In this document: positions 9,001 to 15,000 of the stretch, one piece after another
Position numbering within the stretch: the first letter of the stretch is position 1
Layout: each line of letters begins with the position of its first letter
Sequence record: NZ_CP013691.1
Direction: 5' to 3' (one strand)
Source: a plasmid
DNA: 64,000 bases
Made by a program: the position numbers

Positions 9001-12000
9001 ACTAAATAATATCTATGTGAAAACAGCAAAGACTCCCAATACTTTAATACATACAAATGACAGTGTAAATTTTGAAATTTACAATACTACCAATATACAA
9101 GAGTTGAAAGAACTTTTTAAAAGTAAAAGTATATTATATCCGGGAACACCAAAATATGCTAATACAACTCTTTTAACACCTCAAGATCTAGCAGCATTCC
9201 ATACAAAACTAAAAAACAGTTATAACCTTGATCAAGCTCCAATTCATAAATTCTCTCAAACTAAGGACTTCGAACTTCTACAATTTACTAAACCAGGTTA
9301 TATAAAAGACGCACTTTGTCTAGGAGTTAAATTTCAAATACCAGTTGAAGATGATTTTATCACAGTATCATATAATGCAGAAGATTTATTTACAATAGAA
9401 TCTGAACAAAAAGGAAAATTAACCAATGAAGTTTTATACAATTCCCTTGAGCAAAAAATAGATAATATAATTGCTGGAGATTATTTAGAACAACAACACT
9501 CCAATCGAAGAAAAATATAAAACAAAAAGAGTCTAGAAATGGACTCTTTTTTTATAGTTGAATTTTATTTAAATAATTTATATAAAAAATTTAATTATAA
9601 CAATTAAAATAAATTTATCATTTAAAAAGGGCGTCAAAACTATAATTTACACTGAGTAATGAAAAGCAACAAATTAAAGATTTAACAGCTGTGCTGAAGC
9701 AATTATTGTATACAAAAGAAGAGTCTAAATAGACTCTTCTTCGTTAATACCCTCTTGTAATTGATACATACTAGGAAAAAAGGAATTTCCTTTTTTGATT
9801 AACTGGCAAGCATCATTATTGTTAATCAAACATAACCACTTTTCTAAATCCTCAGGATTATTAGATTCTCCTAATGCCCATACTTCGCCTTCTTCAGTTT
9901 CATACATGCAGAAATAACAAAAAATATCCTCATCGCATTCCTTCTTTTCTCTTAAATTATCTTCATCAGTCAAACCAATGACAAAAGCTTCGGTATTATT
10001 TATCTCAAATCTTAAACAATTAAAATAAGATAAATCACCTACAATATTATATTTACTCTTTGCCTTTTCAGTCCATTTGTCATAAGCTTTAGTCACTTTT
10101 TTAATTTGCTTTTTCTTCATCTTGATATCGTTCAGAATTATCCCGCTGTTCCCCGATTTGATATTTATTAAAAGGTTATAAGCAAATATAGTGATTTATA
10201 TAATTATATACAATTAAATTTGTTATATAAATTATTTAAATTAATAATCAAATTTCGAATCAATACTTTCCTCATCATTCAAAGAGGTGTCAAGTTCTTG
10301 CATAAGTATTTTAATTTCTTCTAAAGACATTACGTTATTATCTTCTACTGGGGTGTTATAGTATTCTACTAATTTAGCTTTACTTTTTTCCTTTCTTTTG
10401 AATCTTACTTTCCGCTGAGCAGCAAAAATTTTTCTATCAGATTTATATCGATCATAGATTTCTTTTTGTTCATCTTTAAAAGCATCATTCAAATCCTTTA
10501 TATCACTTTTTAACCCATTGTCAGGGGCAATGAATTCACTTTCTTTTTTTATTTTGGACCACAAATCTAATTGAGAATTAGATAGAGTACGCTCTATAAA
10601 TAAAACATATGATTCTTTAATCTTTTTCTCAGTTTCATTTTTTTCAACTGGAAGCATATCTGTTCTATCATTGAGAACTTTCAAATCTCTTTTCACATAT
10701 TCATTTTTTACTTTAAAAACAGCTTCTTGTCTTTTAGACAAGCCAAGCTCTTTATGTTCTAGAATCTCCTCTATATCAGTAAAAACAACCTCTATACTAT
10801 CTGATGGGATTACTATTGGCTTTTTAATTCCTTTATCTTGGCCATAAATAAAAGTTGACAAACTAAACAATAGGATTGGTAGAATTTTTTTCTTCATAAT
10901 TATATAAAATCTATTTTTTTATTAGTAGTTAATATGAGTTCTTTAGAATAGTTTTCCCCTTTCATATTCTTACAAACCACAGTTCCAGCAGTATTATTTT
11001 TTACCAGATTCAAGACATCTTTTACTGTAATATCATAGCCTTTCATTTGCTTATATATTTGAAATTTACATACTGTATAATTTGTACAGGCGTACTTATT
11101 GTTAGATAGTGTTATTACCCCATCCCCACAAGAAGGACAAGTACAGATGTTATAATCAACATTAATTTGAAAAGTATTATCATCCAGGTATAATCTCCCG
11201 CCATAAAAAAAATTACTATCTCTGTTCTTTAAATTAGAGATAAACCTACTTTTTTCACCGGTCAATAATTTTATAGCTAAAGTATCATCAACCAAAATGC
11301 CTTTAGTTTCTTTAAAAATTGCTATAGGACACTGTAAACTAGGATCCATCATCCTATCATTATTTTCACAAAAATATCCATTGAGGTTCTTTTTTATTTT
11401 TCCATTACACAATGGACAGCAACTTCCTTTTAAAATATCTACAAAATCAAATTTACTTGAGTGGATATCAAAAAAGACATACCCGGAAAACATTTCATTC
11501 TTGGAATTTAAAAGAGAAGGGAAAAAAACACCATTCTCACCGCTTTTTAATACCTCGCAAAGCAGTTCTTTATCAAAAATAATTCCATACCATGATTTCC
11601 AAATATATAGGTCACAAACAAAACCATTTATTGTACTACTATTACTACAATGAAAGGCGTGTTCATTTTCCATGAGAAAAGCACTATTACATTTAGGGCA
11701 TTTTAAATTAATCATTCATCTAAATTTTATATAAAACTAGGAAAAATAAAATCCGAAAAAAAATAAAACTAGGAAAAATAAATCCTATGTTTTTTCTTTT
11801 CATTAGAAATGGTGTTTACTTTTATTATATTTTCCTTATTATAATGGTGTTTACTAGTGTATCTTTTCCTTATTATGATGGTGTTTACAAGATTATAATT
11901 TTCAGTATAAAAAATACAGAAGGGTTATATAAATTATAACACCTAGATTTTTCTCAAATTAAAATACTTTAATACCTTATTAGTCAGTAGATTAGTTCTG

Positions 12001-15000
12001 TTTTAGGTACTCTAAAACTAGACTACGAGGGCGTCAAAACTATAATGTAGGACGTCAAAACTATAACAAACGGCGTCAAAACTATAATATAGGGCGTCAA
12101 AACTATACGAGTGCATCAAAACACCTAAAAAAAAAGATTTGACTATTATGTTTTTATTTATTAAAAAGTATAATAAACTTAAAATCAATATTTTACAAGC
12201 AAAAAACGGCGTCAAAACTATAATATTTCATACTTAAATTAGGTCTTATACACCTATTTAAGATACAAAAATCTTTCTTCTTAAAAAAGTTGTAGAAAAC
12301 AAATATACATTTTAAATTATTTAAATAATTTATATAACAAATTTAATTGTATATAATTATTTAAATCACTATATTTGCTTATAACCTTTTAATAAAATTA
12401 TTGATAATGAAAGTAACACATCTAAAAAAAGATTGTATTCAGAAAGAATATACCTACAAAAACCAACTTATAATTGAATTCGAATACTGGAACAATCCAA
12501 TATCATATTGGTGTATCGATAATTGGAAAGTAGAAGAACTCTTTACATTCAAGCATTCGGATATTAATGCATATGACATAACTATTGAAATTAGAAGTGC
12601 TGCAATGCCCAACGGAGAAACCCATTACGGATTATATTGTAATGCTCTTGATACTTCCAAACAACCTTATAGATATCCTGGTTATCATGAGCACACGAGG
12701 GGGAAAGACTACCTCACCGCAAAACAAGGATTACTAATTGAGCTTAATTCGATAATTGAATTTAGATATCCTCAATCTCATTGGAAAGAAATAAGCCAAT
12801 GGATAAAAAACAACTACACAGGGCAAACCACACTATTTTAAGTAACAAATATGAGCAAGAAGGTCTAAAGCCTTCTTGCCCAAAAAAAGTACAATTATGC
12901 ATCAATTTATAATAAGAGCCGTAAAAAATAAGAAAGAGGATCCCTTTGGGATGACAGTTAATGATGAGCACGTATATTTCTTTTGTTCTTCATTAAAAGA
13001 CCTCAAGGCAACTATGAGACATATTAACCCTCCCGGATATAGAATTCATTCAGTTAACTGGTTCTCTAAGTATATAAAGCTATTTAATAATGATTTGACA
13101 TTATATGATGGCTTATTTGGGCATGAAAAATTTAGAATAGTCCGCATTTTTGAAGTTCCTTCAGATTACACTGATTTCAATTACACAAATAAATCTCAAC
13201 AAACATATACTTTAAAAATATTCAATAGAACCGCTTTGCCCTATTTGGAAACTAAATTCAAAACAGTGTAAATAAAATATTATGAGTAATTTATCTCCCT
13301 CTTTTAGTTTATAAAAACGACCGTTTTACTATACTCAATTCTTATTTTACTTTTCTTATCCTTTTCAAATAAAAACAATGTTTTTTAGTTTACATTGTGG
13401 TTTACTTTCAAAAACAGTTTACTATATTTGTAACTAACCTTTTAATAAACTTTTTAATATTTAAATATGATAAACTACACAGACAATCCTACGGGATTAC
13501 ACATTGAGGATTCTTTCACTTATAATAAAGTAGATCCTTTGATCAAACTTTACAATAAATTAAATCTTCTTTTAAAAGACTCCAGCATGATCAAGATTGG
13601 ATGTTATGAAATAACCAGGACCATTCTAGATGCTGAATTAAATATCAGAGTCTATTCAACATCCGATTTTTCTTACTTTGATATTAACAAAGATAATTTA
13701 GGTGATTTCTCTTTTCACACTGAAAGAGGATCTAGAGAAACGTTACTGACAGTTGAACAAGCAATTTTTAATATAACTGAATTGATGGACTAATTTTTCT
13801 TTTCCTCAGAAAACCTTTTAATAAATATCGAATGAAACATCAACATTTATATGACCTAATGGAAATTAGTTCAATCATTTTCCTATGCGTCTTAATAATT
13901 ATTACATTGGCTATCAGCTTAATTAGATATTACAAACGAAAAAAAACAAATTAGATATGAATTCAGTTATTCCCTCGTTGCTTAATTCCCTCATGGAAAA
14001 GTATAAAATCAGTGCAGAAGATGCTGAAATTTTCTTAAATGAAGAATACCAGGAACAAACCTCAAAATCGACGTATGGCGGAGCATCTTATACTCAAATA
14101 ATTCAAATATGGCTTGATACTCTAGCAAAAGGAGAATCAATAAAATTAGATATGTTCCTTATAACAAAATTGCCATTCATAAGAATTCCCCATTTAACAG
14201 CAGTTCTAGGATTTTATGACGTCCTACTCGAAATGAAAGACACTTACAACAGCTCATATATTTCATTTGAAGAGAAGATAGACTCTATCTGCAATACAGT
14301 AGATAATAACATTTATAAAACATACGATAATTTTGTTATTCCTATCAGCCTAAATAAAGTAATTCAATGGGGACTTTACCAAAATTTAGAAGTAGTAAGT
14401 AGCTTTTTCTCTTCAAAAGAAAACAAACATTTTACTTATGACTATAACGATTTTAAAAATGATGAAATAGCAATTAATGAAGCAAAAAAAATATTGGAGA
14501 ACACTTCTATTGATGTCGTTTATTTCAACATTATAGGAACTCCTTTTGCAGAATATGAAAGTGAATCATTATTTACAATTCCTTTCCTAATTGAAAATAT
14601 CCATACTAGAGAGTATAATAAAAATACTGAAGCATATACCTACACTAAACTTAAAGCTGCTTCTGATTTAGAACTCTTGGAGTTTATACTAAATGAAACA
14701 TCACTATATGATCAGCAATCTTCAATGTAACCAATGTTCAATAGAAAGACAATAATCGAAACTATATGATTTTTGGATATGCACGTGTTTCAACTAGTGA
14801 CCAAAATATTGAGTCACAAATTGAAGAATTAAAAAAACTAGGAGCTGAGAAAATCTATTCAGACAAAGGTTCTGGAAAAGATTATAATCGAGTTGAGTTT
14901 AAATTACTTTTAGAAAATTTGCGCGAAGGAGATACATTAGTAGTTACTAAATTGGATCGAATAGGGCGCAATTTAAAGGACTTTATAAGCCTATTTGAAG

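What the first reader, a model, noticed from the sequence alone, without database searches (positions are those of the whole stretch)
11716..12400. Repeat-dense non-coding region with a 21-bp-periodic iteron array: candidate replication origin or master binding site
The 685-bp intergenic region holds three repeat systems:

- 2 x ATAAAACTAGGAAAAATAAA.
- 3 x 35-bp tandem repeats (ATGGTGTTTAC..).
- Five direct copies of GGCGTCAAAACTATAAT at exact 21-bp spacing (12029-12128, the last copy degenerate), an ~70-bp AT-rich block, then a sixth copy at 12206.

Direct repeats phased at two helical turns next to an AT-rich stretch are the classical architecture of iteron-type origins. An autonomous replication origin on an excised ICE, or an oriT-associated enhancer, would be notable. 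No rep or relaxase gene is adjacent.
Basis: seen in the sequence. Interest (0 to 1): 0.75.

Follow-up and report, generated by a model that had tools for sequence, protein, structure and literature searches.

The report
Iteron replication origin of Myroides plasmid
The repeat array is most likely the replication origin of a multidrug-resistance plasmid of Myroides, where the plasmid's own RepE-like initiator protein, encoded several kilobases away, would bind to start copying the plasmid; this is an ordinary kind of origin in a plasmid family whose replication has not been described.

Summary
The repeats are real and far beyond chance. The window is not an ICE. It is a ~70-kb conjugative multidrug-resistance plasmid of Myroides (100% identical to pMA84474 over the region tested, probably p63039).

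Its AlphaFold model (pLDDT 82.7) matches only mini-F RepE and related iteron initiators in the PDB. Nine of 65 family members reach Pfam Rep3_C.

In nine related Bacteroidota plasmids or contigs, this Rep is followed directly by plasmid-specific 17-20-bp repeats. Where the contig extends far enough, these end in a tight cluster at 21-24-bp spacing.

Here rep lacks that gap. The only iteron-like repeat family on the whole plasmid is GGCGTCAAAACTATAAT. So the array at 12030-12128, the AT-rich block and the sixth copy are the best candidate for oriV, served in trans by Rep 5.4 kb away on the island-free backbone.

Corrections:
- The fifth copy is offset by 19 bp, not 21.
- The 20-mer and the AT-rich box near 12324 are promoter or operator elements reused elsewhere.
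- Four more perfect iterons lie at 2043, 6793, 8314 and 9630, inside ~165-bp modules of unknown role.

No binding or replication was shown. Verdict: new member of a known kind, moderate interest.

The parts
12030..12109 (+). Four iterons (GGCGTCAAAACTATAAT and variants) at exactly 21-bp spacing. Proposed core Rep-binding array of oriV.
   Evidence: No substitutions here in the diverged SRR24199711 variant.
12112..12128 (+). Degenerate fifth iteron (TGCATCAAAACACCTAA, 10/17), offset 19 bp from the fourth.
   Evidence: and direct reading.
12129..12207 (.). AT-rich block (82-88% AT). Candidate DNA-unwinding element.
   Evidence: Comparable 83-90% AT blocks follow the tight iteron cluster in most of the six relatives examined.
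12208..12224 (+). Sixth iteron, perfect copy, on the far side of the AT-rich block.
   Evidence: Unchanged in the variant, while positions 12207 and 12226 are substituted.
11808..11903 (+). 2.8 copies of a 34-35-bp tandem repeat (ATGGTGTTTAC...). Unique to this region; role unknown, possibly an auxiliary protein-binding site.
11731..11782 (-). Two copies of a 20-mer (gene-sense TTTATTTTTCCTAGTTTTAT), 16-67 bp upstream of the 271-aa gene. A promoter/operator motif shared with the operon starts near 46.0 kb and 60.2 kb. Not part of the origin proper.
12324..12406 (+). Reused promoter cassette for ORF 12407: AT box with -33 TTG, a 20-nt spacer, a -7 box TATATTTG (12370-12377), and the leader AACCTTTTAATAAAAT.
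   Evidence: Near-identical cassettes lie upstream of the genes at 222, 4785 and 10120(-). The match to the Bacteroidota TAnnTTTG consensus is by direct reading and my own knowledge.
2043..2059 (+). Dispersed perfect iteron in a hybrid module (~1990-2129), between convergent genes.
6793..6809 (+). Dispersed perfect iteron in a hybrid module (6738-6879), 147 bp upstream of the 415-aa gene.
8314..8330 (+). Dispersed perfect iteron in a hybrid module (8255-8400), 147 bp upstream of the paralogous 347-aa gene (start 8477).
9630..9646 (+). Dispersed perfect iteron in a hybrid module (9572-9715), between convergent genes.
37391..38686 (-). rep: a 431-aa WH1-WH2 (RepE-fold) initiator, a divergent Rep_3 relative. 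Proposed trans-acting partner of the iterons.
39344..39377 (.). Two tandem copies of the palindrome AAAATGTGACATTTT upstream of the rep operon (115 aa, 100 aa, Rep). Likely the operator of that operon; unrelated to the iteron.
10900..11715 (-). Left flanking gene: 271-aa Zn-ribbon protein with topoisomerase C-terminal repeats. Also lies next to the iterons in pFM-G13, but not in Bacteroides plasmids.
15448..35293 (.). 19.8-kb resistance island (IS1595 and IS91-type units) that separates the array from rep in this copy. Absent in the SRR24199711 variant.

Best explanation
The 21-bp-phased array (12030-12128), the adjoining AT-rich block (12129-12207) and the sixth repeat (12208-12224) form the iteron core of the vegetative replication origin (oriV) of a ~70-kb conjugative resistance plasmid of Myroides.

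Proposed mechanism, inferred by analogy with RepE/F, pi/R6K and TrfA/RK2:
- Monomers of the plasmid's own WH1-WH2 initiator (431 aa, 37391-38686, minus strand) bind cooperatively to the same face of the helix at iterons spaced two helical turns apart.
- They bend the DNA and melt the neighbouring AT-rich element.
- They then recruit the host helicase, starting theta replication.

Rep acts in trans. On the island-free backbone its gene ends 5.4 kb from the array. In this copy a 19.8-kb resistance island pushes them 25 kb apart.

The four extra perfect iterons (2043, 6793, 8314, 9630) would be auxiliary Rep sites. Their role is open: copy-number control by titration or handcuffing, or Rep control of the adjacent genes.

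Shown here: the repeats and their statistics; the Rep fold; the family-wide Rep-iteron association; the uniqueness of the 17-mer family on this plasmid.

Inferred, not shown: that this Rep binds this 17-mer, that melting occurs at 12129-12207, and that replication starts here.
For: (1) Four iterons at exactly 21 bp, a degenerate fifth, an 82-88% AT block and a sixth copy. The 17-mer gives 10 matches against 0.29 expected.

(2) The window is a plasmid (100% identical to pMA84474 over window 10900-13300), so an oriV must exist.

(3) The 431-aa protein is a RepE-fold initiator.
- tblastn relatives are annotated as RepB-family initiators (E 1e-24 and 5e-19).
- 9 of 65 family members hit Pfam Rep3_C (best E 1.5e-7) and one hits Rep3_N.
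- The AlphaFold model has pLDDT 82.7.
- The top 42 Foldseek PDB hits are all RepE or RepE-iteron-DUE complexes (1REP, 8AAN, 8AC8), probability 1.00, target TM up to 0.69. The next hits have probability below 0.2.

(4) In nine relatives, rep is followed at once by 2-15 plasmid-specific repeats of about 17-20 bp in rep's orientation, different in each plasmid type. In the seven complete plasmids or long contigs these end in a tight cluster at 21-24 bp, in most cases with an 83-90% AT block beyond it. The relatives are pFM-G13, pGSB-24, pWB8, Riemerella pRCAD0416RA-1, Chryseobacterium and Capnocytophaga plasmids, and L053, L054, L056.

(5) In the window, rep is followed by a Fic gene after 67 bp, with no repeats nearby. 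An unbiased 13-mer census of the island-free plasmid finds the 17-mer as the only iteron-like family. No copies lie outside the window.

(6) In a 96-99% identical variant (SRR24199711), the 650-bp intergenic region carries 18 substitutions. None fall in the four good iterons or the sixth, and several lie within 1-4 bp of iteron borders (P about 0.02-0.04, which is weak).

(7) Size (17 bp), number (4-5) and spacing match the ranges for classical iteron origins listed in PMC4980987.
Against: - No experiment links this Rep to this repeat. The pairing rests on elimination.
- rep and the iterons are unlinked and on opposite strands, unlike in all nine relatives.
- No half-iteron inverted repeat lies at the rep promoter. 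Its operator-like palindrome is unrelated to the iteron.
- No DnaA box within 1 mismatch lies in 11.6-12.5 kb, although such boxes are also almost absent in the relatives.
- The AT-rich block is only modestly richer than an already AT-rich background.
- GC skew shows no switch at 12 kb. With gene orientation fitted, an origin at the array explains only 9-11% of the residual, against 32% for the best position. The test has low power.
- The iteron sequence shows no significant similarity to relatives' iterons.
- Four perfect copies sit in promoter-like modules, which would also suit a transcription-factor operator.
Confidence: 0.66

Rival explanations
1. The 17-mers do bind Rep, but the array is a copy-control or incompatibility locus (like P1 incA or F incC) that titrates or handcuffs Rep. 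Replication actually starts elsewhere on the plasmid.
For: - rep and the array are unlinked.
- Iterons are dispersed over 10 kb.
- Relatives carry loosely spaced iterons in addition to the tight cluster.
- GC skew does not point to 12 kb.
Against: - No second cluster of the 17-mer, or of any other iteron-like repeat, exists that could serve as the true origin.
- The tight cluster next to an AT-rich block is the arrangement seen in most of the complete relatives examined.
Confidence: 0.12
2. The 17-mer is the operator of a plasmid transcription factor other than Rep, a global regulator in the manner of KorB/KorA or omega. It would control the hybrid modules and the divergent promoters of this intergenic region, and the array would be a high-occupancy operator cluster.
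For: - Four perfect copies lie in conserved promoter-like modules, two of them exactly 147 bp upstream of paralogous genes.
- The reverse complement of the 17-mer contains TAGTTTTG, a match to the Bacteroidota -7 consensus (direct reading).
- The region is flanked by divergent promoters.
- Other motifs on the plasmid behave like shared operators.
Against: - No candidate regulator was identified. The neighbouring proteins have no DNA-binding family hits apart from Zn ribbons.
- Phasing at 21 bp, with 4-5 direct copies next to an AT-rich block, is the signature of Rep_3-type iterons. It is reproduced next to rep in relatives.
- A Rep without any iterons would then be left unexplained.
Confidence: 0.1
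3. The array is a partition centromere (parS/parC-like), bound by an adaptor protein working with one of the plasmid's ParA ATPases.
For: - Direct-repeat arrays are typical of type Ib/II centromeres.
- The plasmid has two ParA-like genes (and at record 3448-4212).
- In several relatives ParA lies just upstream of rep and the iterons.
Against: - Neither ParA gene is near the array. One is about 12 kb away and the other about 35 kb away.
- The repeat unit and spacing fit Rep_3 iterons.
- In relatives the repeats abut rep, not parA.
Confidence: 0.06
4. The repeats are strand-specific leading-region signals, such as Frpo-like ssDNA promoters or primase ssi sites, used on the transferred strand after conjugation.
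For: - All copies share one orientation.
- The 1-14-kb region carries anti-defence-type genes (AcrIIA9/PcfK-like, PcfJ, RadC, an orphan methylase) next to a primase/ParA operon.
Against: - The module shows no significant ssDNA folding on either strand (z -0.73 and -0.78).
- Rfam finds nothing at these sites.
- Genes around the copies run in both directions.
Confidence: 0.03

Closest known systems
oriS/RepE of the F plasmid, and other Rep_3-type iteron origins (pPS10, pSC101, R6K gamma ori)
   Same: - A WH1-WH2 initiator fold; the top PDB matches are RepE-iteron complexes.
- 4-5 direct repeats of 17-22 bp phased at about two helical turns, next to an AT-rich element (ranges in PMC4980987).
   Different: - rep is not adjacent; it lies 5.4 kb away on the backbone.
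- No inverted half-iterons at the rep promoter.
- No recognisable DnaA box.
- Rep is larger (431 aa, with an extra C-terminal helical region) and has only ~7-11% sequence identity in the structural alignments.
- The host is a flavobacterium.
oriV/TrfA of RK2 (IncP)
   Same: - 17-bp iterons, with a cluster of five plus isolated copies.
- The origin is served in trans by an initiator gene located far away on a large conjugative plasmid (my own knowledge; iteron sizes and numbers in PMC4980987).
   Different: - RK2 oriV has four DnaA boxes and 13-mer DUE repeats, not seen here.
- TrfA has an extra N-terminal DNA-binding domain.
- No sequence relationship was tested beyond the fold.
R6K alpha/beta/gamma origins; P1 incA; F incC
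   Same: Additional iterons outside the core cluster, single or grouped, bind the same initiator and act at a distance by looping, handcuffing or titration (my own knowledge). This is a precedent for the four dispersed 17-mers.
   Different: Here the extra copies are spread over 10 kb, separated by genes. Each is embedded in a ~165-bp conserved module that shares its upstream half with a reused promoter cassette. No function has been shown.
Rep-iteron replicons of pFM-G13, pGSB-24, pWB8, pRCAD0416RA-1 and related Flavobacteriia/Sphingobacteriia plasmids (uncharacterised)
   Same: - The same Rep family.
- Plasmid-specific 17-20-bp iterons with a tight cluster at 21-24 bp, usually with an AT-rich block beyond it.
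- In pFM-G13 the same Zn-ribbon gene flanks the iterons.
   Different: In all of these the iterons begin at the rep stop codon and share rep's orientation. In the window they are unlinked, on the opposite strand, and partly dispersed.

Membership tests
Iteron-type theta origin (Rep_3 / WH1-WH2 initiator class) | Several direct repeats of about 17-22 bp, phased at about two helical turns | tested here: met
   Four copies at exactly 21 bp, a degenerate fifth at 19 bp, and a sixth 115 bp further on.
Iteron-type theta origin (Rep_3 / WH1-WH2 initiator class) | AT-rich unwinding element next to the iterons | tested here: met
   12129-12207 is 82-88% AT. The excess over the local 72-80% background is modest, and no 13-mer-type DUE repeats were recognised.
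Iteron-type theta origin (Rep_3 / WH1-WH2 initiator class) | The replicon encodes a WH1-WH2 initiator | tested here: met
   The AlphaFold model (pLDDT 82.7) matches RepE54 and RepE-iteron-DUE structures only. Rep3_C/Rep3_N hits occur among family members. The window protein itself has no Pfam hit.
Iteron-type theta origin (Rep_3 / WH1-WH2 initiator class) | Co-occurrence of Rep homologues with lineage-specific iterons | tested here: met
   Nine relatives each have their own repeat sequence directly downstream of rep.
Iteron-type theta origin (Rep_3 / WH1-WH2 initiator class) | rep adjacent to the iterons and autoregulated through inverted half-iterons (typical, not universal; RK2 is an exception) | tested here: not met
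   rep lies 5.4 kb away on the backbone. The operator-like palindrome upstream of the rep operon is unrelated to the iteron.
Iteron-type theta origin (Rep_3 / WH1-WH2 initiator class) | DnaA boxes in the origin (common, not universal) | tested here: not met
   No TTATCCACA match within 1 mismatch in 11.6-12.5 kb. Such boxes are also almost absent in the relatives.
Iteron-type theta origin (Rep_3 / WH1-WH2 initiator class) | Rep binds the repeats, and the fragment supports autonomous replication | not testable with these tools
   Needs EMSA or footprinting and a mini-replicon assay.
Integrative conjugative element (ICE) | Integrase with att sites, and a chromosomal location | tested here: not met
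   The region matches a circular plasmid record. The only tyrosine recombinases lie inside the IS91-type units of the resistance island. No tRNA gene is present.
Partition centromere (parS/parC) | Repeat array adjacent to, or within, the par operon and bound by its adaptor protein | tested here: not met
   The ParA genes lie at record 3448-4212 and window 46879-47541, far from the array. Binding is not testable here.
Frpo/ssi single-strand elements of plasmid leading regions | Extensive, conserved secondary structure of one strand | tested here: not met
   ssDNA folding z-scores are -0.73 and -0.78.

The most novel reading that the evidence does not exclude
The initiator doubles as a regulator. 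The four perfect iterons are embedded, in one orientation, in promoter-like modules spread over the 10-kb anti-defence/accessory region. They would let Rep (or Rep-mediated looping to the origin array) couple plasmid copy number to expression of neighbouring genes, including two paralogous orphan genes that each start exactly 147 bp downstream of an iteron. Alternatively they act as a distributed handcuffing system. This would be an 'exploded' iteron control locus with genes interspersed, which has not been described for Rep_3 plasmids as far as I know.
Probability: 0.15. Interest if true: 0.6.

Novelty: new member of a known kind. Interest (0 to 1): 0.36.

Why it matters
This plasmid lineage (pMA84474, and probably p63039) carries tet(X)-type, OXA-347, MYO-1, erm(F), ere(D), sul2 and aadS resistance genes in Myroides. 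Yet MOB-suite, as reported by PLSDB, assigns it no replicon type and calls it non-mobilizable, and its published description does not mention replication.

Identifying a RepE-fold initiator family with its iterons gives three things:
- a handle for typing Flavobacteriia and Sphingobacteriia plasmids;
- a basis for predicting incompatibility;
- a starting point for shuttle vectors for Myroides and relatives.

It also offers a natural case in which rep and its iterons have become unlinked, and in which iterons have spread into intergenic modules. That would be a tractable system for studying Rep action at a distance, if the pairing is confirmed.

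Tried and rejected
- **Family scans of the neighbours.** Pfam, NCBIfam and PHROGs scans of the flanking proteins gave nothing useful apart from Zn-ribbon/topoisomerase C-terminal repeats in the 271-aa protein.
- **The 271-aa protein as Rep.** Considered and rejected. In Bacteroides, Mucilaginibacter and Sphingobacterium plasmids its homologues sit inside conjugation-accessory clusters, and pBF9343, the one checked for repeats, has no array there.
- **First structure prediction.** The Rep model from an 11-sequence alignment was unusable (pLDDT 37). 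It succeeded only with the 65-sequence alignment.
- **Sequence searches for Rep.** PDB sequence and profile searches for Rep found nothing. The word-indexed homologue search found only the protein itself.
- **17-mer in genomes.** The genome-contig scan returned 31 single, evidently chance hits in unrelated taxa and no relatives.
- **Frpo/ssi or sRNA reading of the modules.** Rejected on folding z-scores and Rfam.
- **Iteron similarity to relatives.** Comparing the window iteron with relatives' iterons, to fix register and orientation, was not significant.
- **GC skew.** Raw skew and orientation-corrected skew are both uninformative or unsupportive.
- **DnaA boxes.** None found.
- **The 415-aa gene.** tblastn and PDB searches were uninformative.
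- **Literature.** Searches found no description of this replicon.

Full report
**1. Observation**

- two perfect copies of ATAAAACTAGGAAAAATAAA, at 11731 and 11763;
- 2.8 copies of a 34-35-bp tandem unit (11808-11903);
- GGCGTCAAAACTATAAT-type repeats at 12030, 12051, 12072 and 12093, at exactly 21-bp spacing;
- a degenerate copy at 12112-12128;
- an 82-88% AT block at 12129-12207;
- a perfect sixth copy at 12208.

The 17-mer with up to 3 mismatches gives 10 matches in the window, against 0.29 expected.

There is one correction. The degenerate fifth copy is 19 bp, not 21 bp, from the fourth.

**2. What the element is**

The region is 100% identical to the circular plasmid pMA84474 of Myroides albus P34 over window 10900-13300.
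- That record carries a 14.6-kb terminal duplication, so the true circle is 69,887 bp.
- It differs from the window only inside the resistance island.
- The exact flanking proteins also occur on a 90.8-kb M. odoratimimus contig.
- The published description names p63039 as the nearest relative of pMA84474 and says nothing about replication.

The backbone encodes a Bacteroidota-type conjugation system: TraM, a DUF87 ATPase, a coupling protein and a DUF5712 relaxase. There is no integrase outside the IS91-type units of the island and no tRNA gene. This is therefore a conjugative plasmid, not an ICE, and it must have a vegetative origin.

**3. The missing rep gene**

None of the immediate neighbours is an initiator.
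- The 271-aa protein belongs to a Zn-ribbon family (topoisomerase C-terminal repeats) found on about 60 Bacteroidota plasmids.
- In the Bacteroides, Mucilaginibacter and Sphingobacterium plasmids inspected it lies within conjugation-accessory clusters. pBF9343, the one checked for repeats, has no array next to it.

The lead came from pFM-G13 of M. odoratimimus.
- Its homologue of the 271-aa gene is preceded by a 1.1-kb gap holding 15 co-oriented copies of TCGAGATTCCACTACCCA. These end in six copies at 22-30-bp spacing, followed by an AT-rich run.
- The gene on the other side of that gap (384 aa) is weakly similar to window ORF 37391-38686.

That 431-aa window protein is a RepE-fold initiator.
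- Its tblastn relatives are annotated 'RepB family plasmid replication initiator protein' (E 1e-24 and 5e-19).
- It has no Pfam hit itself.
- A full HMMER search found a small family of 88 clusters.
- Of 65 full-length members, 9 hit Rep3_C/WH2 (best E 1.5e-7) and one hits Rep3_N/WH1.
- With that alignment, AlphaFold gave pLDDT 82.7 and pTM 0.73.
- The top 42 Foldseek matches in the PDB are all mini-F RepE54 or RepE-iteron-DUE complexes (1REP, 8AAN, 8AC8), with probability 1.00 and target-normalised TM up to 0.69. The next hits have probability below 0.2. The identity of 8AAN and 8AC8 comes from PMC10602881.

**4. Family architecture**

Nine relatives were examined: pFM-G13, pGSB-24, pWB8, Riemerella pRCAD0416RA-1, a Chryseobacterium plasmid, a Capnocytophaga plasmid, and Logan contigs L053, L054 and L056.
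- In the seven complete plasmids or long contigs, the Rep gene is followed by a 0.7-1.1-kb gap with no annotated gene.
- In all nine, plasmid-specific repeats of about 17-20 bp begin at or just after the rep stop codon, in rep's orientation. Copy number ranges from 2 on the shortest contig to 15.
- Where the contig extends far enough, the repeats end in a tight cluster at 21-24-bp spacing.
- An 83-90% AT stretch lies within about 60-180 bp beyond the cluster in most of the six plasmids examined.
- Each plasmid type has its own repeat sequence, as expected for cognate Rep-iteron pairs.

**5. Linking the array to Rep in this plasmid**

- In the window, rep is followed by a Fic gene after only 67 bp, and no repeat array lies around the rep operon.
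- A 13-mer census of the island-free plasmid shows the 17-mer is the only iteron-like repeat family. The other recurrent words are a translation leader, a promoter box and the 20-mer.
- No copies lie in the ~6 kb outside the window.
- A Logan contig from SRR24199711 shows the same backbone without the resistance island. The island is window 15448-35293, so the array lies 5,416 bp from the 3' end of rep on the ancestral backbone.
- In that diverged variant the intergenic region carries 18 substitutions in 650 bp. None fall in the four good iterons or the sixth, one falls in the tail of the degenerate fifth, and several lie within 1-4 bp of iteron borders. The probability of zero is about 0.02-0.04, which is suggestive only.

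By elimination and by family analogy, the array with the AT-rich block is the best candidate for oriV, served in trans. This step is an inference. No binding or replication was demonstrated.

**6. What the other repeats are**

The AT-rich stretch at 12324-12349 is the upstream half of a promoter cassette.
- It comprises a -33 TTG, a 20-nt spacer, a -7 box TATATTTG matching the Bacteroidota TAnnTTTG consensus, then the leader AACCTTTTAATAAAAT and the ATG.
- It is repeated almost verbatim upstream of the genes at 222, 4785 and 10120(-).

The 20-mer recurs at 46000/46016 and, inverted, at 60212-60271.
- In every case it lies upstream of an operon start in the same gene-sense orientation.
- It therefore looks like a shared promoter or operator motif for the 271-aa operon rather than part of the origin.

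The 34-35-bp repeat is unique to this region and unexplained.

**7. The dispersed iterons**

Perfect 17-mers at 2043, 6793, 8314 and 9630, all on the plus strand, each lie in a ~165-bp module. A module consists of the AT box, the iteron, and a conserved 3' part ending in the palindrome TTGTATACAA.
- Two modules precede paralogous orphan genes (415 and 347 aa; N-termini 40% identical). Both genes start exactly 147 bp after the iteron.
- The other two modules are followed only by terminator-like hairpins.
- The modules do not fold significantly as single strands and match no Rfam family. This argues against Frpo/ssi elements or a structured RNA.

Their role is open. They could be Rep titration or handcuffing sites, as at P1 incA or the distant single iterons of R6K. 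They could be Rep-regulated promoters. Or they could be passengers of segmental duplication.

**8. Evidence that does not fit, or is neutral**

- There is no DnaA box.
- The palindrome AAAATGTGACATTTT upstream of the rep operon is unrelated to the iteron, so classical Rep autoregulation by half-iterons is not seen.
- Iterons and rep lie on opposite strands.
- GC skew follows gene orientation. After fitting orientation, an origin at the array explains only 9-11% of the residual variance, against 32% at the best position, which lies inside a single 5.8-kb gene.
- Iteron sequences show no significant similarity across relatives.

**9. Comparison and verdict**

The array works like the iteron cores of F oriS, R6K gamma, pPS10 or RK2 oriV. 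It has 17-bp units, 4-5 copies, spacing of two helical turns and a neighbouring AT-rich element; the typical ranges are given in PMC4980987. Like RK2, it is served by a distant initiator gene.

It belongs to an uncharacterised, highly divergent Rep_3-like family of Flavobacteriia and Sphingobacteriia plasmids. It departs from its own relatives in that rep is unlinked from the iterons and some iterons are dispersed.

This is a new member of a known kind. It has practical value for plasmid typing and vector construction, and the dispersed iterons remain an unexplained side issue.

Noticed in passing
window 4563-4644 (+): Flavo-1 RNA motif (RF01705; 43.5 bits against a gathering score of 42; E 1.1e-6). 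It lies between two AT boxes (4434 and 4704), upstream of the orphan C5 cytosine methyltransferase gene (4785-6287). A plasmid-borne copy in an anti-defence-type gene cluster might hint at this orphan motif's role.
   Followed up: no
NZ_CP102755.1 (L001/L002), record 1-14587 versus 69888-84474: The deposited pMA84474 record has a terminal duplication of about 14.6 kb, with the same proteins listed twice. The real circle is 69,887 bp, not 84,474 bp. This is probably an over-circularised long-read assembly.
   Followed up: partly
window 140-221, 4704-4784, 10121-10236 (-), 12324-12406; leader also at about 1235, 2561, 3859, 13440: One promoter cassette (AT box, TAnnTTTG -7 box, leader AACCTTTTAATAAAAT, ATG) is reused nearly verbatim upstream of at least four genes. 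The leader alone precedes about nine start codons. This suggests coordinated, possibly early, expression of the accessory and anti-defence genes.
   Followed up: partly
window 39344-39377 and 46079-46093: The perfect palindrome AAAATGTGACATTTT occurs only three times. Two copies are in tandem upstream of the rep operon (115 aa, 100 aa, Rep) and one is upstream of the 247-aa/ParA-like operon. It is probably a shared repressor operator linking replication and transfer or partition genes.
   Followed up: partly
window 45996-46036 (+) and 60210-60289 (-): Tandem copies of the 20-mer family (ATAAAACTAGGAAAAATAAA) lie upstream of the 62-aa gene/helicase operon and of the operon starting at 60374. 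Their gene-sense orientation matches that upstream of the 271-aa gene.
   Followed up: partly
window 15448-35293: A 19.8-kb resistance island lies between the resolvase gene and the 256-aa gene. It contains two ISBbi1 (IS1595) copies and four integrase-plus-IS91-type transposase units. It is absent in the SRR24199711 variant, where the two junction alignments overlap by 8 bp. Its composition differs between the window and pMA84474.
   Followed up: partly
window 6956-8203 and 8477-9520 (+): Two orphan paralogues (N-terminal 93 aa 40% identical) each start exactly 147 bp downstream of a dispersed iteron. Neither has a family, PDB or plasmid match outside this lineage.
   Followed up: partly
window 1-6300 and record 1933-4212: A leading-region-like gene set: ParA, a 177-aa protein and a CHC2 primase, then RadC/JAB, a PcfK/AcrIIA9-family protein, PcfJ and an orphan C5 methylase. 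PLSDB (MOB-suite) labels the plasmid 'non-mobilizable' even though a DUF5712 relaxase, a coupling protein and a Bacteroidota T4SS are present.
   Followed up: no
L007 (pFM-G13) 19499-20348: Fifteen co-oriented iterons lie between the Rep homologue and the Zn-ribbon gene. The first six lie in three ~165-180-bp long-period units of two iterons each. This arrangement resembles the module-embedded iterons of the window.
   Followed up: partly
window 39388-45183 (-): A 1931-aa fusion protein with methyltransferase, SNF2-like and helicase C-terminal domains lies immediately upstream of the rep operon. It dominates the GC-skew signal of the backbone.
   Followed up: no
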